Positions 1-9,364 of a DNA stretch of 11,633 nucleotides are shown in pieces. The translations under genes and the position numbers were made by a program. The stretch lies in the UHGV virus genome UHGV-0141986. The stretch is one strand, 5' to 3'. The DNA is from a virus. The notes below the pieces were generated by a model. That model was not told where the DNA came from. It was given only the letters and a program-made list of their open reading frames with translations, and ran no database searches. The stretch's first letter is position 1. Each line of letters starts with the position of its first letter.

Positions 1-605
1 GTTAATCTTAATGTAAGGCTCAGGCCAGTTTGGGTTTAATGCTTTGAGATAACGCTGTGTTCCATCTTCTATCAATCGCTTGAAGGTGGTTTCGCCTGTA
101 TCGTGCATCAATGCAATAACGTCGTCACCGTGGCAGGCAGGGACTTCGGGATCAACAAAAATCATGTCTCCAGGGCGGTACTCATCAATCATTGAATCAC
201 CAATCACCCGCAAGATATAAGTCATTTCGCCACAGGGTACAGGGCAGGGATAAGTTTCTGCTGTGCTCAAATCAACCTCAGAATAGCCAACTTCTTTCCA
301 TGCTCCGGCCTGTACCCATGATATGACAGGGACTAACGTTATTTGTTTGTTAGTGATTGAAACATCAGGTTTTTTTGTGATGTTCGTTGTCTGGTGTTCT
401 TGATCAAGCCATCCGACAGGCAGGTCGAAACATTTTTCGATGTGCCGTGCCATGCTGTCACCGATATTTTAGTAGCGCCATCCCCCATAAACCTGCTGGT
501 TTGGGTTGGCTCGCGATCAATCATGGTGGCAAAGGATGAATTTCCGCCAACACCATCTCTCAGTTTTCTGGCGTTAGACCGCCGGATGTCATGGATTGTT
601 TTCAT
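1..605 (-). pseudogene. cI-type prophage repressor (N-terminal HTH plus S24/LexA-like autopeptidase domain); C-terminus runs off the window start; apparent 1-nt frameshift near 466-471
   Basis: Minus-strand translation from 453 down to 1 gives MARHIEKCFDLPVGWLDQEH...VPVISWVQAGAW...ILRVIGDSMIDEYRPGDMIFVDPEVPACHGDDVIALMHDTGETTFKRLIEDGTQRYLKALNPNWPEPYIKIN, with the GDSM serine and TFKRL lysine motifs typical of S24 peptidases. The HTH part (MKTIHDIRRSNARKL...SFATMIDREPTQTSRFMGDG, track ORF 339..605) is in a different frame. The two frames can only be joined by a 1-nt indel around the T4 run at 467-470. Confidence 0.6.
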
Positions 606-927: not shown

Positions 928-1491
928 ATGAGGCTAACCGTGGGTAAGTATCACTGGAAAGTAGAAAAACAGCCTGAGTGGTACGTGAAAGCTGTCAGAA
1001 AAACTATCGCAGCGTTGCCGGGTGGTTACGCTGAAGCAGCTGACTGGCTGGATGTAACAGAGAACGCATTATTTAACCGCCTTCGTGCCGATGGCGATCA
1101 GATTTTCCCGCTGGGATGGGCAATGGTTTTACAGCGCGCGGCTGGCACTCACTACATTGCGGATGCTGTCGCACAGTCTGCTGGTGGGGTGTTCGTATCG
1201 CTTCCTGAAATTGAGGAAGTAGAGAACGCCGATATAAACCAGCGCCTGCTGGAAGTCATCGAACAGATCGGGAATTACTCAAAGCAGATTCGTTCGGCAA
1301 TCGAAGATGGGGTCGTGGAGCCACACGAGCAGACAGCAATTAATGATGAGTTGTATCTGTCAATTTCGAAGCTCCAGGAGCATGCAGCACTGGTCTACAA
1401 AATCTTTTGCGCCCCAGAAAAGAGTGACGCCCGCGAGTGTGCAGCTCCGGGCGTCGTGGCGTTTTGTGTCTGTGGAGAAACTAACGCATGA
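928..1491 (+). CDS. CII-like phage regulatory protein (CP76 / YdaT-like family); true start may be the in-frame GTG at 940
   Basis: 187-aa ORF directly after the cro-like gene. The segment NALFNRLRADGDQIFPLGWAMVL...YIADAVAQ resembles the HTH region of CII(CP76)-type regulators as I recall them. GAGG at 930-933 sits 6 nt before GTG 940. Confidence 0.65.
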   Translation: MRLTVGKYHWKVEKQPEWYVKAVRKTIAALPGGYAEAADWLDVTENALFNRLRADGDQIFPLGWAMVLQRAAGTHYIADAVAQSAGGVFVSLPEIEEVENADINQRLLEVIEQIGNYSKQIRSAIEDGVVEPHEQTAINDELYLSISKLQEHAALVYKIFCAPEKSDARECAAPGVVAFCVCGETNA

Positions 1492-1636
1492 ACAGTTTAA
1501 CGGCAAATAACCGTTTGTCGCAACAGCTGGTGGTCAGTGTCGCTGAACACCTGTTGTTACGGCATGAATGCAGATTACCAAATCACCTGGCTGTAAGTAA
1601 CCACAGAGAACTTTACCTGACTGTGGGGGGCGAGTT

Positions 1637-1816
1637 GTGCGGGAACTTAACCGCTGGTTTCGTGACGGAAGAGGGCTTTATGTCCATGTTATTCGTTGGG
1701 AACCAGAAACACAGCGCGTTATCTATCTTCGCAAAGACTACCCGCATGAGTGCTTTAGTCCTTTGTGGAAATTCAGGCGTGATTTTGTTGAGTGTGAAGG
1801 ACCACCAGCACATTGA
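1637..1816 (+). CDS. Small conserved prophage protein (DUF4222-like motif, from memory); GTG start, absent from ORF track (59 aa)
   Basis: Frame open from stop at 1598-1600 to TGA 1814-1816. GTG 1637 preceded by GGGGGG (1625-1630). Translation VRELNRWFRDGRGLYVHVIRWEPETQRVIYLRKDYPHECFSPLWKFRRDFVECEGPPAH is more protein-like than the overlapping 202-aa track ORF and resembles the ORF at 2292-2528. Confidence 0.4.
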   Translation: MRELNRWFRDGRGLYVHVIRWEPETQRVIYLRKDYPHECFSPLWKFRRDFVECEGPPAH

Positions 1817-2065
1817 TTCTTCCATTCCGGGACGTTACACTGTTCAGGCACCTTATAAAGCGGGTGCCGGGATTGGCGTCCTGGAAATGTTATCGGCGAT
1901 ATATGACGCGCCAGCGTTTTTTTTATCGTCTGCGTCTGCGCACACCCAAATTATGGTGGGCTGGACGGGGGCACCGAAAGGTGCGCCGGTTTCCGATAAC
2001 GCCGGTTACGCCAACCCCGTTCAGTTCACCACCAGCGAAATTCACTGTTATCGGAGGCTGCCATC

Positions 2066-2299
2066 ATGGCTACTGTCCCAGCCCTCACTCGTCTGAATGA
2101 TGAAGACTTACATAAACTCAGTTATGTAACAACTGCACTACGTGCTCTGCGCAAGGTAACTCTTTCGGATCCGCAGGCGCATCAGGTTCTGGTAGAAACC
2201 CTTCTTAACTTGCAGGCTGAACGTATTCGTCTGGCGGGTAAGGCTAATTTTCATATTCACCGTCTTCTGAATATCAGCGGAGGGCATCGTCATGCTTAA
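2066..2299 (+). CDS. Hypothetical small phage early protein (77 aa)
   Basis: ATG 2066 with GGAGG at 2053-2057; stop overlaps the next start (translational coupling). No family recognised. Confidence 0.6.
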   Translation: MATVPALTRLNDEDLHKLSYVTTALRALRKVTLSDPQAHQVLVETLLNLQAERIRLAGKANFHIHRLLNISGGHRHA

Positions 2300-2528
2300 T
2301 CCGTTGATCCTCAATATTTGCCGTTTGCTTCAGCGTAAAAAAACATCAATTCCTACCGTTGGTCAGTGGTATACCACGCCTGCAGGGCATGTTCTACGTG
2401 TTAGCCTGGTTGACCGTGAATGTCAGAAGGTGGTTTGTGAACCGCTGGGCCGTAATTACCGCGTCAGTATGCCGCTTATAGCCTTTCGCTCCGGAAAAAA
2501 CATGAAGCATCTCGGAGGTGCAGCATGA
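2292..2528 (+). CDS. Hypothetical small phage protein (78 aa), possible paralog of the 1637-1816 product
   Basis: ATG 2292 with GGAGGG at 2279-2284. Segment GQWYTTPAGHVLRVSLVDRECQKVVCEPLGRNYRVSMPLIAF shares a Y..G.V.V...RV...YP.EC..P..F-type pattern with the 1637-1816 product. Stop overlaps the next start (ATGA at 2525). Confidence 0.6.
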   Translation: MLNPLILNICRLLQRKKTSIPTVGQWYTTPAGHVLRVSLVDRECQKVVCEPLGRNYRVSMPLIAFRSGKNMKHLGGAA

Positions 2529-3364
2529 GTATGGAGCTGATGGTTAAAGCGATGAAAATTCGAGTGGGTAATCCATTGCGAAAACTGGTTCTGATCAAGC
2601 TGGCTGATAATGCCAGCGATCAGGGTGAGTGCTGGCCCAGCTACCAGCATATTGCTGACCAGTGCGAGATTAGCAAACGTTCTGTGATGAATCATATTGC
2701 GGCCCTTTGTGAGTCCGGGCTGGTAAAAAAAGTCACCCGGAAAGGTGAAAAAGGTAACTCAAGTAATATCTATCTCCTTCATCTGGATGGTGCAGGAGAT
2801 TCACTAGGGGGTAGTGCAAATAATTCACTATCTGGTGCAGCAAATTCACCAGGTAGTGCAGGAGTTGCACCAGGTAGTGCAGGAGTTGCACCAGGGGGTA
2901 GTGCAGGAGATTCACCCAGAACCAGTCACTCTTTTGAACCAGTCAAAGAATCAGTCAATGAACCAATAGCTGTTGGTGCATCTGCTGATGAGTCTGTGCG
3001 AGTTCGTTCAAACCGACCGGAATACTCTCCGGAGTTTGAGCAGGCATGGCTGGCATATCCCAAACGTGCTGGTGGCAATTCAAAATCAGCAGCCTTCAAA
3101 GCCTGGAAAGCCCGTTTGAACGAGGGGGTAAACCCCGAAACCATGCTGGAAGGTGTGAATCGCTACGCGGGCTGGGTATCTGCGATGGGCAATAGCGGTA
3201 CACAATTTGTGAAACAGGCTGTCACGTTCTTTGGTCCGGATCGTCATTTCGAAGAATCCTGGGAAGTTCCTGCGGTATCTGCAGCCAGACGCGAGGACCC
3301 GTACTTCAAAGCCAGTTACGACAAAGTGGACTACAGCCAGATCCCGGCAGGATTCAGGGGGTGA
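2525..3364 (+). CDS. Phage replication initiation protein (N-terminal winged-HTH replisome-organizer domain, Gly/Ser/Ala-rich linker, C-terminal domain)
   Basis: 279 aa. N-terminus LRKLVLIKLADNASDQGECWPSYQHIADQCEISKRSVMNHIAALCESGLVKKV matches the HTH_36-type domain of phage replication initiators (from memory). GGAGG at 2513-2517. The linker is encoded by the repeat array at 2789-2917. Confidence 0.75.
   Translation: MSMELMVKAMKIRVGNPLRKLVLIKLADNASDQGECWPSYQHIADQCEISKRSVMNHIAALCESGLVKKVTRKGEKGNSSNIYLLHLDGAGDSLGGSANNSLSGAANSPGSAGVAPGSAGVAPGGSAGDSPRTSHSFEPVKESVNEPIAVGASADESVRVRSNRPEYSPEFEQAWLAYPKRAGGNSKSAAFKAWKARLNEGVNPETMLEGVNRYAGWVSAMGNSGTQFVKQAVTFFGPDRHFEESWEVPAVSAARREDPYFKASYDKVDYSQIPAGFRG
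2789..2917. repeat. Array of six iteron-like direct repeats (core GTGCA-N5-TKCAC, 21-24 bp spacing) inside the replication gene; candidate replication origin
   Basis: Core elements start at 2790, 2814, 2835, 2856, 2877 and 2901. Units at 2852-2872 and 2873-2893 are identical 21-mers (GGTAGTGCAGGAGTTGCACCA). Each core has internal dyad symmetry (GTGCA / TGCAC). Confidence 0.6.
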
Positions 3365-3366
3365 TC

Positions 3367-3855
3367 ATGAGTCTGTTAAATGACGTTCAGAAATTCATTG
3401 AAGCCCATCCTGGGTGTACTTCCGGAGACATTGCGGATGCTTTTGCAGGTTACTCACGGCAGCGCGTTCTGCAGTCTGCAAGCAAGTTACGTCAGAGTGG
3501 GCGTGTGGCTCACCGTTGTGAAGGATATACACGCAGACATTTCCCGCGCCTGACTGAGAGAGCGCAGGAGCCGGAACCACAACCAGTTCGTGAAACCAGA
3601 CCTGTGCGCAATTTCTATGTCGGCACTAACGATCCCCGGGTGATTTTGTGCCTGACCCGCCAGGCTGAAGAACTGGAGTCCAGGGGCTTATACCGTCGTG
3701 CTGCAACCGTGTGGATGGCGGCATTCCGTGAAAGCCACTCCCAGCCAGAACGAAACAATTTTCTGGCACGTCGTGAGCGGTGCTTACGGAAAAGCAGCAA
3801 GCGCGCTGTATCGGGTGATGAGTGGTATCTGTCAGGGAATTACGTGGGGGCTTAA
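3367..3855 (+). CDS. PerC-family-like putative transcriptional regulator
   Basis: ATG 3367 preceded by GGGGG (3356-3360). C-terminal segment LTRQAEELESRGLYRRAATVWMAAF resembles the conserved PerC/Pch core (from memory). Stop overlaps the Dam start (TAATG). Confidence 0.6.
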   Translation: MSLLNDVQKFIEAHPGCTSGDIADAFAGYSRQRVLQSASKLRQSGRVAHRCEGYTRRHFPRLTERAQEPEPQPVRETRPVRNFYVGTNDPRVILCLTRQAEELESRGLYRRAATVWMAAFRESHSQPERNNFLARRERCLRKSSKRAVSGDEWYLSGNYVGA

Positions 3856-4478
3856 TGAGTAATAAATATTGCCAGGAGCTGGTGGAGCTGCGGAACAAAC
3901 CAGCCCATGAACTGAAGGAAGTGGGCGATCAGTGGCGCACGCCGGATAACATTTTCTGGGGAATTAACACCCTGTTTGGCCCGTTTGTCCTGGATCTGTT
4001 TACTGACGGTGATAACGCCAAATGTACCGCGTATTACACGGCGGAAGACAACGCGCTGGCGCATGACTGGTCAGAACGTCTTGCGGAGCTTAAAGGTGCT
4101 GCCTTTGGTAATCCCCCATACAGCCGCGCCAGTCAGCATGAGGGGCAATACATCACCGGCATGCGTGATAAAGGCGGGCGCTATGTTTTCCTGATCAAAG
4201 CTGCCACCAGCGAAGTGTGGTGGCCGGAAGATGCAGATCATATTGCTTTTATTCGCGGGCGTATTGGTTTTGAACTGCCTGCCTGGTTTATCCCGAAAGA
4301 TGAGAAGCAGGTGCCGACAGGCGCTTTCTTCGCTGGTGCTATTGCTGTTTTCGACAAGACCTGGAAGGGACCGGCAATCAGCTACATCGGGCGCGATGAA
4401 CTTGAGGCATGTGGTGAGGCGTTTCTGGCGCAGGTTCGCCAGCAGGCGGAAAAACTGGTCAGGGAGATGGCGGCATGA
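3855..4478 (+). CDS. Phage DNA N-6-adenine methyltransferase (Dam, phage-type)
   Basis: MSNKYCQELVELRNKPAHELKEVGDQWRTPDNIFWGINTLFGPFVLDLFTDGDNAKCTAYYTAEDNALAHDWSE...AAFGNPPYS carries the NPPY catalytic motif and the N-terminal WxTP signature. Track start 3822 overlaps the upstream gene; ATG 3855 is preferred. Confidence 0.85.
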   Translation: MSNKYCQELVELRNKPAHELKEVGDQWRTPDNIFWGINTLFGPFVLDLFTDGDNAKCTAYYTAEDNALAHDWSERLAELKGAAFGNPPYSRASQHEGQYITGMRDKGGRYVFLIKAATSEVWWPEDADHIAFIRGRIGFELPAWFIPKDEKQVPTGAFFAGAIAVFDKTWKGPAISYIGRDELEACGEAFLAQVRQQAEKLVREMAA

Positions 4479-6172: not shown

Positions 6173-7168
6173 GTGACCGTGAGAGCACTACTGACCCCTG
6201 AAATTGCCCCGCGTATGGGGATCGTATTGTTCAGACCAGGTTCAGAGCTGATGCCCTTGTTTATGCAGGGGCGTGTCCTGCTGGAGCCTGAGCCGGAACG
6301 TTATTCATCTTTCGCCAGTGGTGCCGTTCCGGCGGCATCACAACCGCTGGCGGATGATCCTGCCGTTCGGGCCGTGTTCCGCAATGAGGCAGTGATCCGT
6401 CGTGCTGGTGGCGTGGAATGTCTTGAAAGCTGGTTACTTCGTGAAAAAGGCTGCCAGTGGCCTCATTCCGACTGGCACAGCGAGAATATGACAACAATGC
6501 GACACGCTCCGGGCGCAATCCGTCTGTGCTGGCACTGCGATAACCAGCTGCGCGATCAGTTCACGGAACGGCTGGAATCAATGGCAACGGATAACTGTGC
6601 CCGCTGGGTGTTGTCTGTTGTGCGTCGGGATCTCGGTTTTGATGACAGTCATGTTGTGACAATGCCGGAACTGTGCTGGTGGCTGATTCGTAATGATCTG
6701 GCGGATGCCTTACCGGAAAGTGCAGCCCGTAAGGCACTGAGATTACCGAAGCCTGTTGTGCCGTCTGTTACCCGGGAAAGTGACCTTGTGCCTTCGGTTC
6801 CTGCCACCAGCATCATCCAGGATAAGGCGAAAAAGGTGCTGGCGCTGAAAGTGGATCCGGAGTCGCCGGAGTCTTTTATGTTACGCCCAAAACGTCACCG
6901 CTGGGTTAATGAAAAGTACACGCGCTGGGTTAAGACGCAGCCGTGCGCATGTTGTGGAAAACCTGCTGATGATCCCCACCACCTGATAGGCCACGGTCAG
7001 GGGGGAATGGGTACAAAAGCGCATGACCTTTTTGTGTTGCCTTTGTGCAGAAAGCATCACGACGAGCTGCATGCGGATACCGTGGCATTTGAAGAGAAGT
7101 ATGGCTCCCAGCTGGAGCTGATATTTCGTTTTATCGATCGTGCGCTGGCAATAGGCGTACTGGCGTAA
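6173..7168 (+). CDS. DUF968-family prophage protein (YdfU-like) with C-terminal Cys/His cluster
   Basis: 331 aa. C-terminus CACCGKPADDPHHLIGHGQGGMGTKAHDLFVLPLCRKHHDELH. Position immediately upstream of Q matches ydfU in K-12 Qin (from memory). Start may be GTG 6173 or GTG 6179. Confidence 0.7.
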   Translation: MTVRALLTPEIAPRMGIVLFRPGSELMPLFMQGRVLLEPEPERYSSFASGAVPAASQPLADDPAVRAVFRNEAVIRRAGGVECLESWLLREKGCQWPHSDWHSENMTTMRHAPGAIRLCWHCDNQLRDQFTERLESMATDNCARWVLSVVRRDLGFDDSHVVTMPELCWWLIRNDLADALPESAARKALRLPKPVVPSVTRESDLVPSVPATSIIQDKAKKVLALKVDPESPESFMLRPKRHRWVNEKYTRWVKTQPCACCGKPADDPHHLIGHGQGGMGTKAHDLFVLPLCRKHHDELHADTVAFEEKYGSQLELIFRFIDRALAIGVLA

Positions 7169-8355: not shown

Positions 8356-8568
8356 TCATGAAAGGTAAACATTGGCAGCTGATGGTCCACGCAGACCATT
8401 TATCCGGCAAAATTCCACGCGTAATCCGGTGGTAATTTCTTCTGCATCGCGGAGATTGAGCGCTGAAACATGAAGCTGGACATCGATACGACCATCGGAT
8501 GGGGTTATAAGACCTTTGCCGCTTTTGCCGTCAAAGGTTTTGAGAATTCCTGTCATTTTACGGGACAA
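8356..8568 (-). CDS. cspF: Cold-shock-like protein CspF/CspH type (lacks canonical RNP motifs); TTG start
   Basis: [70 protein letters not shown]. First codon on the minus strand is TTG (8568-8566), preceded by TAAGGA; first ATG is at 8556. Divergent from cspB as in Qin. Confidence 0.85.
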
Positions 8569-8867
8569 AAAATTCCTTAATACTGATAACTTGGCGCACT
8601 ATACACACGTTCCTGAAGAAAGCTATAGTTTTTTGATGGGGTTGAAGATGGCTGGATGTCTAAAATAAACATTGCTTCATATGTTCAACTATGCGTTAAT
8701 GATTGCGTCGGTTTGAAGAACAGACGATATACGAAGTAGTTTACTAAAGCAGTTCTCATTTCAGGTGTTATTCACTTATTCCTTCTTTGAGTCTCTCCAA
8801 TTAAGTACGAAGTCGTTTCTGTTATACAAGCCATTTATGCCGAAAGGCTCAAGTTAAGGAATGTAGA
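8569..8867. promoter_or_regulatory. Divergent cspF/cspB promoter region and long cspB 5' UTR
   Basis: 299-bp AT-rich intergenic region between divergent csp genes. Long structured 5' UTRs are a known property of cold-shock mRNAs. TAAGGA SD 7 nt before cspB ATG. Individual elements not resolved. Confidence 0.35.
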
Positions 8868-9083
8868 ATGTCAAATAAAATGACTGGTTTAGTAAAATGG
8901 TTTAACGCTGATAAAGGTTTTGGCTTTATTTCTCCTGTTGATGGTAGTAAAGATGTGTTTGTGCATTTTTCTGCGATTCAGAATGATAATTATCGAACCT
9001 TATTTGAAGGTCAAAAGGTTACCTTCTCTGTAGAGAGTGGTGCTAAAGGTCCTGCAGCAGCAAATGTCATAATTACTGATTAA
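8868..9083 (+). CDS. cspB: Cold-shock protein CspB-like (CspA family)
   Basis: [71 protein letters not shown] with RNP1 (KGFGFI) and RNP2 (VFVHF) motifs. Confidence 0.9.
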
Positions 9084-9364
9084 AATTCATAGTTTGTCTG
9101 TATACGATAACGAAGAAGGCTGATGCCTGAGTGGAGATACAGACAGAGTGGTGAATATTGGATCTCTTTAATAAATAGTAAGGAGGTCCAATACATGAAA
9201 CAATGGCCAGCATATTTGGCAATAACTTAATCAGGAAAAGTATGCTAACCATTGTGGTGAAGTGCAGGTTTGCTGCATGAATAGTTTTACAGCAGAAGCT
9301 AACTGCTGGCATAGCAAAACAAAGTGCGTAAGTGGATGACTCCCACAAAAAGTACCACAATATT

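What the first reader, a model, noticed from the sequence alone, without database searches (positions are those of the whole stretch)
2789..2990. Six dyad-symmetric iterons at two-helical-turn spacing inside the replication-initiator gene: probable origin
Six copies of a 15-bp element GTGCA-N5-TKCAC start at 2790, 2814, 2835, 2856, 2877 and 2901, spaced 24/21/21/21/24 bp. They include a perfect tandem 21-mer (2852-2872 and 2873-2893). Each element is internally palindromic, and the array encodes the Gly/Ser/Ala-rich linker (GSAGVAPGSAGVAP...). This mirrors lambda, where ori iterons lie in the linker-coding part of O and are bound by the O N-terminal domain. Immediately downstream (2918-2965) is a more AT-rich stretch with three CAGTCA repeats that could act as the unwinding element.
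Basis: partly seen in the sequence, partly recalled or inferred. Interest (0 to 1): 0.6.

Follow-up and report, generated by a model that had tools for sequence, protein, structure and literature searches.

The report
Phage replication origin inside initiator gene
The six repeats are almost certainly the binding sites of a prophage replication origin lying inside its own initiator gene, as in phage lambda, and next to them is a 36-base DNA element kept nearly unchanged in related phages from E. coli to Pseudomonas and Vibrio.

Summary
GTGCA-N5-TKCAC occurs six times on the + strand at the stated positions, against 0.13 expected by chance. The spacing is 24/21/21/21/24 bp. The array lies in the disordered linker of a 279-aa initiator with an N-terminal winged helix (HTH_36/DnaD_N type).

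The origin interpretation is strongly supported by comparison, not by experiment:
- In 28 of 40 relatives carrying the motif, one copy is read in another reading frame, so the DNA is what is conserved, not the peptide.
- Every relative examined has 2-9 dyads at 21-24 bp spacing at the same place.
- The half-site sequence follows residues 53-55 of the recognition helix without exception in 61 distinct combinations.
- Relatives of this gene sit directly upstream of lambda-P-like, DnaC-like or DnaB-like genes.

New here: the stretch with the "CAGTCA repeats" is a 36-bp core, AGAACCAGTCACTCTTYTGAACCAGTCAAnGAACC. It is conserved at synonymous sites across gamma-proteobacterial phages whatever the iteron type or C-terminal domain. 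In GC-rich hosts it is the least stable duplex locally.

This is a new member of a known kind (a lambdoid origin embedded in the initiator gene). No paper describing this origin family was found. Function still needs a replication assay.

The parts
2525..3364 (+). Replication-initiator gene (279 aa; intact counterpart of the K-12 CPS-53 yfdO remnant; ortholog of SfV/mEp460 'replication protein')
   Evidence: ORF. Pfam HTH_36 1.9e-11. PHROG 270 at 7e-88. 94% identical to mEp460 gp43.
2525..2794 (+). Coding region of the N-terminal winged-helix domain (aa 1-90), the presumed iteron reader. The recognition helix is at about aa 49-64 (window 2669-2716).
   Evidence: AF2 pLDDT 80-90 with topology H-H-H-H-E-E. 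HTH_36 and DnaD_N hits. Foldseek returns only generic winged-helix matches, including DnaD-N 2v79. Helix residues 53-55 partition with the iteron half-site.
2790..2804 (+). Iteron 1, GTGCAGGAGATTCAC
2814..2828 (+). Iteron 2, GTGCAAATAATTCAC (24-bp gap from iteron 1; preceded by G5 tract 2807-2811)
2835..2849 (+). Iteron 3, GTGCAGCAAATTCAC
2856..2870 (+). Iteron 4, GTGCAGGAGTTGCAC (perfect dyad; unit of the perfect tandem 21-mer)
2877..2891 (+). Iteron 5, GTGCAGGAGTTGCAC. This is the copy-number-variable unit: most close relatives have one copy, the window has two, and L007 has three.
2894..2898 (.). G5 tract that makes the last inter-iteron gap 24 bp
   Evidence: A G5 or C5 tract is at this place in 100 of 116 unique relatives, and the last gap is 24 bp in 114 of 116.
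2901..2915 (+). Iteron 6 (core-proximal), GTGCAGGAGATTCAC, joined to the core by the dinucleotide CC
   Evidence: The CC joint is present in 114 of 116.
2918..2953 (+). Invariant 36-bp origin core, AGAACCAGTCACTCTTTTGAACCAGTCAAAGAATCA (family consensus AGAACCAGTCACTCTTYTGAACCAGTCAAnGAACC). Proposed unwinding or ssDNA-recognition element.
   Evidence: Near-identical DNA in 76 loci from many genera. Third-codon-position conservation is 0.89, against 0.58 in the N-domain. Rare-codon test in Pseudomonas. Duplex stability lies in the lowest 2.5% locally (median over 78 loci). Found in 139 phage records, one place each, always in a replication-protein gene.
2948..2965 (+). Third GAAYCAGTCA copy and GAACCA tail. 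This part is less conserved across the family.
3017..3232 (+). Coding region of the helical C-terminal domain (aa 165-236). Presumed to couple to the helicase or loader. The domain is exchangeable between family members.
   Evidence: AF2 helices with pLDDT 60-80. PHROG hits 'DnaD-like helicase loader' and 'primosomal protein'. The same domain occurs behind a different N-terminal region (no match to window aa 1-132) in the O gene of Stx1_14744, which is followed by genes the record names 'DNA helicase' and 'replication protein'.

Best explanation
Window 2790-2953 is the replication origin of a lambdoid (SfV/mEp460/CPS-53-like) prophage, embedded in the linker-coding part of its own initiator gene.

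Proposed mechanism:
1. Dimers of the initiator's N-terminal winged-helix domain bind the six 15-bp dyads GTGCA-N5-TKCAC. The dyads are spaced about two helical turns apart, so the dimers line up on one face of the DNA and form a wrapped nucleoprotein complex like the lambda O-some.
2. The stress this creates opens the adjacent 36-bp core (2918-2953), which is joined to the last iteron at a fixed distance.
3. The core is probably recognised sequence-specifically, most plausibly as single-stranded DNA by a conserved surface of the initiator. This would resemble what is described for lambda O and for plasmid Rep proteins on their unwinding elements.
4. The C-terminal domain then brings in the replicative helicase. 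In this lineage no phage loader or helicase gene is present, so host DnaB/DnaC would be used.

Shown here: the repeats and their phasing; DNA-level selection on both the iterons and the core; covariation between the recognition helix and the half-site; the replication-module gene context.

Inferred: binding, wrapping, melting at the core, and helicase recruitment.
For: - Motif statistics and phasing.
- The initiator is identified by family searches and by the annotation of viable phages.
- AF2 shows winged helix aa 1-90, disordered aa 91-164 and helical aa 165-236. Iterons (aa 89-131) and core (aa 132-143) therefore lie in the linker.
- The motif is retained across Escherichia, Phytobacter, Kosakonia, Enterobacter, Pseudomonas, Aeromonas and Marinomonas at the same gene position. 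In 28 of 40 loci one copy is in a different reading frame, giving peptide VVQEIHQ instead of SAGDSL.
- All 81 family loci have 3-7 phased repeats. The dyads differ by N-domain type: GTGAC..GTCAC, GGTCA..TGACC, GGGCA..TGCCC, TGCCA..TGGCA, GTGTA..TACAC.
- Helix residues 53-55 partition perfectly with the half-site class in 61 unique combinations.
- Core element: third-codon-position conservation is 0.89, against 0.58 in the N-domain. In 44 Pseudomonas genes Arg is AGA 44/44 in the core against 7/569 elsewhere, and GC3 is 0.30 against 0.76.
- The core lies in the least-stable 2.5% of local 36-step windows (median of 78 loci).
- Fixed architecture: last gap 24 bp in 114 of 116, G5/C5 tract in 100 of 116, CC joint in 114 of 116.
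- Relatives are followed by lambda-P-like, IstB/DnaC-like or DnaB-like genes, and in phi24B by a large 'P' gene annotated with a Gp4D-type helicase region.
- Copy number ranges from 2 to 9 in E. coli prophages. No homolog without repeats was found.
- The lambda precedent (iterons plus AT-rich tract in the middle of O; two proximal iterons plus the AT-rich region suffice for unwinding; O binds ssDNA) is stated in PMC7466680.
Against: - There is no experimental evidence for binding, unwinding or replication in this family. No paper on it was found.
- In the window itself the core is only moderately AT-rich (42% GC) and sits at the 5% level of local instability. A second low-stability patch lies upstream of the array, at 2741-2770.
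- The core is always read in one frame in intact genes, so a peptide-level role for PRTSHSFEPV cannot be excluded on top of the DNA role.
- The window's lineage has no helicase-loader gene, so the helicase-recruitment step is conjecture. The C-domain model is of low confidence and has no structural match.
- The prophage's repressor gene appears frameshifted, so this particular copy may be a defective prophage whose origin no longer fires.
Confidence: 0.85

Rival explanations
1. The repeats are only a by-product of a slippage-prone, low-complexity Gly/Ser/Ala linker. Only the flexible peptide matters, and the DNA has no binding function.
For: The array encodes a predicted disordered linker. Copy number varies by whole 21-bp units between close relatives, as expected from slippage.
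Against: The same 15-bp dyad is kept in two reading frames in 28 of 40 loci. Within the window the arms are invariant while the 5-bp spacer and the encoded residues vary. The dyad class switches together with the recognition-helix residues. Phasing of 21-24 bp is preserved even where the codon register is not, for example 23+22.
Confidence: 0.03
2. The dyads are initiator binding sites used for autoregulation or copy control (an operator, roadblock or handcuffing function), and the origin where strands open lies elsewhere.
For: Plasmid iterons serve both initiation and control (general knowledge; reviews listed). No experiment locates the origin. The window has a second low-stability patch upstream of the array.
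Against: No further copies of the dyad occur elsewhere in the 11.6-kb window, including the promoter-proximal region. The array is rigidly coupled (CC joint, 24-bp last gap) to a locally unstable, invariant element, which matches the architecture of oriLambda. The two roles are not mutually exclusive.
Confidence: 0.07
3. The 36-bp core is conserved because its peptide (PRTSHSFEPVxEP) is a protein interaction motif, for example for the helicase or a host factor, or because it serves as a homology patch for exchanging N- and C-terminal modules. On this view it is not an origin element.
For: The element is read in the same frame in every intact gene. C-terminal domains diverge immediately after it and are clearly shuffled, as a recombination linker would predict.
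Against: A peptide constraint cannot explain fixed synonymous positions or the use of codons that are rare in the host: AGA 44/44 against 1%, GAA 88/88 against 30%, GC3 0.30 against 0.76. Selection for evolvability alone is unlikely to hold 36 bp invariant from Vibrio to Pseudomonas to Escherichia. The partner proteins differ (P-like, DnaC-like, DnaB-like, a Gp4D-type helicase gene, or none), so there is no common phage-encoded interaction partner.
Confidence: 0.1

Closest known systems
oriLambda inside gene O of phage lambda and lambda-like Stx phages (933W, P27)
   Same: The origin lies in the middle of the initiator gene, between the DNA-binding N-domain and the C-domain that contacts the loader. 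It has an array of dyad-symmetric initiator sites about two helical turns apart, flanked on the downstream (promoter-distal) side by an easily melted tract. Iteron number is polymorphic between related phages, 4 against 6 in lambda and Stx phages (PMC7466680) and 2-9 here.
   Different: The initiator is not a detectable lambda O homolog: it hits HTH_36/DnaD_N, not Phage_rep_O. The iteron sequence differs. The gap to the last iteron is fixed, with a G5/C5 tract. Where lambda has an AT-rich tract, this family has a specific 36-bp sequence that is invariant across genera. This lineage has no P gene.
P22 gene 18 and phage L gene 18 origins
   Same: These are lambdoid initiators of differing specificity, each carrying its own repeats inside the coding region. 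The origin is predicted from the repeats (PMC8022706).
   Different: The repeat sequences and protein families differ. Those modules pair the initiator with a DnaB-type helicase (gp12), whereas the window lineage has none. No cross-genus invariant core has been described for them in the text I read.
Iteron plasmid origins (RK2 TrfA, F RepE), where Rep binds one strand of the DUE sequence-specifically
   Same: Winged-helix initiators bind phased repeats next to an unwinding element that contains short repeated motifs. Rep binds the ssDNA of the DUE in a sequence-specific way (PMC4081077 and PMC10602881). This is the best precedent for a sequence-conserved unwinding element like the GAACCAGTCA repeats.
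   Different: There is no Rep_3 or WH1-WH2 homology. The plasmid origins are intergenic, whereas here the origin is inside the gene. No DnaA boxes occur nearby.
DnaD/DnaB-type replisome organisers and their phage relatives (e.g. SPP1 G38P, TP901-1 Rep, whose origins lie inside the rep gene; these phage examples are from my own knowledge and were not checked here)
   Same: The N-terminal winged helix resembles DnaD_N (Pfam 27.7 bits against a cut-off of 27 for the isolated domain; Foldseek hit 2v79). The binding sites lie inside the initiator's own gene.
   Different: The hosts are gamma-proteobacterial lambdoid phages. The C-domain shows no DnaD-C/DnaB_2 hit in Pfam.

Membership tests
Lambdoid initiator-embedded iteron origin (architecture of oriLambda) | Several repeated initiator-binding sites inside the initiator gene, between the N- and C-terminal domains | tested here: met
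   Six dyads at 2790-2915, corresponding to aa 89-131, lie within the disordered linker aa 91-164.
Lambdoid initiator-embedded iteron origin (architecture of oriLambda) | Sites are dyad-symmetric and phased at about two helical turns | tested here: met
   GTGCA-N5-TKCAC at spacing 24/21/21/21/24. Spacing is 21-24 bp in all 81 family loci.
Lambdoid initiator-embedded iteron origin (architecture of oriLambda) | An easily unwound (AT-rich) tract directly flanks the array on one side | tested here: met
   The core 2918-2953 is 42-43% GC, against 57-58% in the adjacent part of the array. It lies in the least-stable 5% locally in the window and 2.5% as the family median, reaching 0.1-1% in Pseudomonas. 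In the window the dip is modest.
Lambdoid initiator-embedded iteron origin (architecture of oriLambda) | The initiator N-domain binds the repeats specifically | not testable with these tools
   Indirect support only: recognition-helix residues 53-55 partition perfectly with the half-site class in 61 unique combinations.
Lambdoid initiator-embedded iteron origin (architecture of oriLambda) | The initiator gene is followed by a helicase-loader or helicase gene (O-P or 18-12 arrangement) | tested here: not met
   In the window the next genes are PerC-like and Dam, as in mEp460. The feature is met in relatives of the same initiator family: lambda P-like, IstB/DnaC-like, DnaB-like, and a Gp4D-type helicase gene in phi24B.
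Lambdoid initiator-embedded iteron origin (architecture of oriLambda) | The fragment confers initiator-dependent replication | not testable with these tools
   Requires a plasmid replication assay.
Lambda O protein family (Pfam PF04492 Phage_rep_O) | Sequence match to the family profile | tested here: not met
   The Pfam scan returns HTH_36, DnaD_N and generic HTH families only. PHROG names such as 'O-like' are functional labels.
HTH_36 / DnaD_N-type winged-helix phage replication initiators (PHROG 270) | Profile match above the curated cut-off, and a winged-helix fold | tested here: met
   HTH_36 at 44-47 bits (cut-off 25). DnaD_N at 27.7 bits (cut-off 27) for the isolated domain. PHROG 270 at 7e-88. 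AF2 winged helix with pLDDT 80-90.
Iteron-plasmid Rep initiators (Rep_3, WH1-WH2) | Rep_3-type profile match and directly repeated asymmetric iterons in an intergenic oriV | tested here: not met
   No Rep_3 hit. The sites are dyads inside a gene.
DnaA-dependent origins (oriC type) | A cluster of DnaA boxes TTWTNCACA at the origin | tested here: not met
   There is a single match in the window, at 6953, and none near 2500-3400; 1.58 are expected by chance.

The most novel reading that the evidence does not exclude
This prophage origin would belong to a large, so far undescribed origin family of gamma-proteobacterial temperate phages. On this reading the family has two layers.

- A programmable layer: 15-bp dyad iterons whose half-site is set by about three residues of the initiator's recognition helix (S-V-M/I gives GTGC/A; T-V-K gives GGGC; T-V-R gives TAGG; A-V-R gives TGCC).
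- An invariant layer: a 36-bp core, AGAACCAGTCACTCTTYTGAACCAGTCAAnGAACC, placed exactly 2 bp after the last iteron.

The core would be a sequence-specific opening and loading site, read by a conserved surface of the initiator (for example as ssDNA) or by a universal host factor. It would not be a generic AT-rich unwinding element. It would work with at least four kinds of helicase or loader partner, or with none encoded by the phage.
Probability: 0.5. Interest if true: 0.65.

Novelty: new member of a known kind. Interest (0 to 1): 0.5.

Why it matters
- It places the replication origin of a very common E. coli and Shigella prophage type. Sequence similar to this 1.6-kb region occurs in 2812 of 5426 complete E. 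coli genomes, and 841 of them carry at least 80% of it. The type includes SfV, cdtI, mEp460, ST64B, Stx2c phages and phi24B.
- It gives a ready-made comparative data set. There are several natural specificity classes in which a few helix residues and the DNA half-site change together. That is a testable recognition code for building orthogonal phage or plasmid replicons.
- The invariant core is unusual. Unwinding elements are normally conserved in base composition, not in sequence. This one is held at synonymous sites against host codon bias from Vibrio to Pseudomonas. That points to a sequence-specific step in origin opening or helicase loading, which could be probed with synonymous recoding.
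- Practically, the core is a one-copy-per-genome marker for finding this origin in prophages, viromes and phage-plasmids.

Tried and rejected
- PDB sequence search with the whole protein gave nothing meaningful.
- Foldseek with the full model returned only generic winged-helix matches, with E at least 0.02.
- A separate AF2 model of the C-domain had low confidence (pLDDT 58) and no fold match. The way the helicase is recruited therefore stays open.
- Pfam on the isolated C-domain found nothing. NCBIfam found nothing useful.
- There is no DnaA box near the array.
- There is no sigma-70-like promoter in 2000-4000. An internal promoter as the reason for core conservation is therefore unsupported.
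- Rfam finds no RNA family over 2500-3400.
- Literature searches (replication modules, mEp460, yfdO, SfV with iterons, phi24B with iterons, and the string GAACCAGTCA) found no description of this origin. The SfV genome paper is not held, and Weigel & Seitz 2006 did not surface in the searches. An earlier in-silico mention there cannot be excluded.
- I looked for a further GTGCA half-site at 2975-2979, which forms inverted repeats I2/I3 with the array. It is not conserved in relatives, so I dropped it.
- The alternative-frame ORFs 2814..2969 (+) and 2733..2915 (-) are by-products of the repeat, not genes.
Full report
**Observation**

The pattern GTGCA-N5-TKCAC occurs six times on the + strand, at 2790, 2814, 2835, 2856, 2877 and 2901, and nowhere else in the 11.6-kb window. 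Dinucleotide-preserving shuffles give 0.13 matches on average, and none of 200 reaches the observed count. Allowing one mismatch adds only one stray site, at 3518. The start-to-start spacing is 24/21/21/21/24, and Tandem Repeats Finder reports period 21. The perfect tandem 21-mer at 2852-2872 and 2873-2893 is real.

Two details need refining. Only copies 4 and 5 are perfect dyads; the other four have TTCAC as the right arm. The two 24-bp gaps are exactly those that carry a GGGGG tract. Downstream, GAAYCAGTCA occurs three times, at 2919, 2936 and 2948. That stretch is 42-43% GC, against 57-58% in the 3' half of the array.

**The host gene**

ORF 2525..3364 encodes 279 aa. It matches Pfam HTH_36 (and DnaD_N when the domain is scanned alone) and PHROG 270 'replication initiation protein' at 7e-88. 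It is 94% identical to gp43 'replication protein' of the phage mEp460, whose annotation notes similarity to the 'replication protein' of SfV. It is the intact counterpart of the yfdO remnant of the K-12 CPS-53 prophage.

AlphaFold2 gives a confident winged helix for aa 1-90, a disordered stretch for aa 91-164, and a helical C-domain for aa 165-236. The iterons (aa 89-131) and the downstream repeats (aa 132-143) therefore lie entirely in the linker.

The gene sits in a typical lambdoid early-right operon: CII-like, Ash, initiator, PerC, Dam, LexA-like, RusA, KilA-N, DUF968, Q.

**Is the DNA or the peptide conserved?**

Eighty close relatives from IMG/VR carry the same array with 4-7 copies. The variable unit is the perfect 21-mer. 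Protein lengths in the large protein database run from 242 to 302 aa in steps of 7-8 aa, which corresponds to 2-9 copies. A 250-aa variant has just two iterons plus the downstream element. No homolog without repeats was seen.

Eighty more distant loci from one-genome-per-species contigs were then examined. GTGCA-N5-TKCAC arrays occur at the same gene position in Phytobacter, Kosakonia, Enterobacter, Pluralibacter, Lelliottia, Pseudomonas, Aeromonas and Marinomonas. In 28 of the 40 loci that have the motif, one copy is read in a different frame, with spacing 23+22 and peptide VVQEIHQ instead of SAGDSL. The DNA motif is kept while the encoded peptide is not. This excludes a purely peptide-level explanation.

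**Covariation with the initiator**

A de novo search for the best repeated 15-mer in the linker of all 81 loci finds 3-7 repeats at 21-24 bp spacing in every one. The dyad differs between N-domain types: GTGAA..TGCAC, GTGAC..GTCAC, GGTCA..TGACC, GGGCR..TGCCC, TGCCR..TGGCA, TAGGC..AAGCA and GTGTA..TACAC.

Aligning the N-domains shows that residues 53-55 of the recognition helix partition perfectly with the half-site class across 61 distinct helix/iteron combinations:
- S-V-M/I/V goes with GTGC/GTGA.
- T-V-K goes with GGGC.
- T-V-R goes with TAGG/TAGC.
- A-V-R goes with TGCC.
- T-A-I goes with GTGT.

The loci are phylogenetically related, so this is a handful of independent switches rather than 61. 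Even so, it is the signature expected if the winged helix reads the dyads.

**Gene context in relatives**

The same initiator family, with the same N-domain, iterons and downstream element, is followed by different partner genes in different phages:
- lambda-P-like genes (L089, L124);
- IstB/DnaC-like plus DnaB-like genes (L085, L116, L129);
- a DnaB-like gene (L082);
- in the Stx phage phi24B, a large 'P' gene annotated with a Gp4D-type helicase region.

This confirms the gene as the O-equivalent of lambdoid replication modules. The window's lineage (SfV, mEp460, CPS-53-like) has no such partner gene. Because mEp460 and SfV are isolated phages, that module presumably works with the host helicase and loader.

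**The downstream element**

Directly after the last iteron, joined by CC in 114 of 116 unique sequences, lies AGAACCAGTCACTCTTYTGAACCAGTCAAnGAACC. It is nearly identical at the nucleotide level in Escherichia, Pseudomonas, Aeromonas, Shewanella, Xenorhabdus, Marinomonas, Photobacterium and others, whatever the iteron class or C-terminal domain.

The evidence for selection on the DNA itself is as follows:
- Major-base frequency at third codon positions is 0.89 in the element. It is 0.58 in the well-conserved N-domain and 0.43 just downstream.
- In 44 Pseudomonas genes the element's Arg codon is AGA 44/44, against 7/569 elsewhere in the same genes. Glu is GAA 88/88, against 30%. GC3 is 0.30, against 0.76.

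Further properties:
- The element is among the least stable 2.5% of 36-step windows within 1.5 kb either side (median of 78 loci). The figure is 0.1-1% in Pseudomonas and 5% in this window.
- It occurs once per record in 139 deposited phage genomes, always under a replication-protein gene. These include SfV, cdtI, ST64B, mEp460, Stx2c phages, phi24B, Min27, and Vibrio, Klebsiella, Stenotrophomonas, Pectobacterium and Aggregatibacter phages.
- The last inter-iteron gap is 24 bp in 114 of 116 sequences, with a G5 or C5 tract in 100 of 116.

**Mechanism**

The best-supported reading is an origin built like oriLambda. There, the iterons and an AT-rich tract lie in the middle of gene O. Two proximal iterons plus the AT-rich tract suffice for unwinding, and O binds the single-stranded AT-rich DNA (PMC7466680).

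Here, dimers of the winged-helix domain would bind the phased dyads and open the adjacent core. Because the core is conserved in sequence and not merely in composition, I infer a sequence-specific step. The phage-encoded partners differ between family members, so the only common phage component is the initiator's conserved N-domain. Its binding to one strand of the core would parallel the sequence-specific binding of plasmid Rep proteins to DUE ssDNA (PMC4081077 and PMC10602881). A universal host factor is the alternative. This step is inference.

**Rivals**

- A slippage-only linker is contradicted by the frame switches and the covariation.
- A purely regulatory role for the dyads is possible in addition to the origin role, but it does not explain the rigid coupling to the unstable invariant core.
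- A peptide motif or a recombination linker may contribute to the conservation of the core. Neither explains the fixed synonymous sites against host codon bias.

**Comparison and novelty**

In architecture this is a lambdoid origin embedded in the initiator gene. In membership, the protein is not a detectable lambda O (PF04492) homolog. It is an HTH_36/DnaD_N-type winged-helix initiator. It has no Rep_3 homology, and no DnaA boxes lie nearby.

That lambdoid initiators of different specificity carry their own repeats inside the gene is an established idea (PMC8022706). The finding is therefore a new member of a known kind. I found no paper describing this family's origin, its invariant core or the helix/half-site code. 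However, the SfV genome paper is not held, and the Weigel & Seitz review did not surface in the searches.

**Caveats**

Everything rests on sequence comparison. The prophage in the window may be defective, because its repressor gene looks frameshifted. The route to the helicase is unknown, because the C-domain gave no structural or family match.

Noticed in passing
window 1848-1924 (+) and 1949-2036 (+): Rfam hits above gathering score to isrK Hfq-binding RNA (61.7 bits) and C4 antisense RNA (82.8 bits). They lie inside the mechanically listed 'Ash-family' ORF 1488..2096. This looks like a P1/P7-type C4-RNA antirepressor control cassette just upstream of the replication gene, so part of ORF 1488..2096 is probably not coding.
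   Followed up: no
window 339-605 (-): The LexA/S24-type prophage repressor (ymfK-like; 215-230 aa in relatives L001, L285 and L286) appears here as an 88-aa ORF whose tail looks frameshifted after about 46 aa. The DNA is otherwise 95% identical to L001. The prophage may be cryptic, or the sequence may carry an error.
   Followed up: partly
window 1488-2528: The region between the CII-like gene and the initiator is split into ORFs of 202, 77 and 78 aa. The first two match the N-terminal (1-84) and C-terminal (100-176) parts of one PHROG family, phrog_3960. mEp460 has a single 383-aa gene there. This suggests a deletion or frameshift in the antirepressor-like gene.
   Followed up: no
window 8707-9146 (+): A full-length cspA thermoregulator 5'-UTR element (Rfam RF01766, 156.7 bits) spans the cold-shock gene 8868..9083. 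A second csp-like gene lies on the opposite strand at 8356..8568. This is typical cargo of Qin/CPS-53-like prophages.
   Followed up: no
window 3289-3900, compared with E. coli K-12 strains (H19-H21): K-12 derivatives match only from query base 990 onwards, that is the last ~75 nt of the initiator gene plus yfdN and yfdM. The K-12 CPS-53 'yfdO' remnant has therefore lost the N-domain, the iterons and the core, and so the predicted origin.
   Followed up: partly
L110 (Erwinia rhapontici) and L114 (Pseudomonas bharatica): In these two loci the initiator gene is frameshifted within the iteron array, giving truncated ORFs of 218 and 133 aa, while the iterons and core DNA are retained. They are probably decaying prophages. 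The repeat array may be a frameshift hotspot.
   Followed up: no
L283 (Stx1a phage Stx1_14744) 3048-3956: A gene annotated 'phage replication protein O' shares only the C-terminal domain with the window protein: 65% identity over aa 133-257, with no match to aa 1-132. It is followed by genes named 'DNA helicase' and 'replication protein'. This is direct evidence that N- and C-domains are exchanged at the linker/origin.
   Followed up: partly
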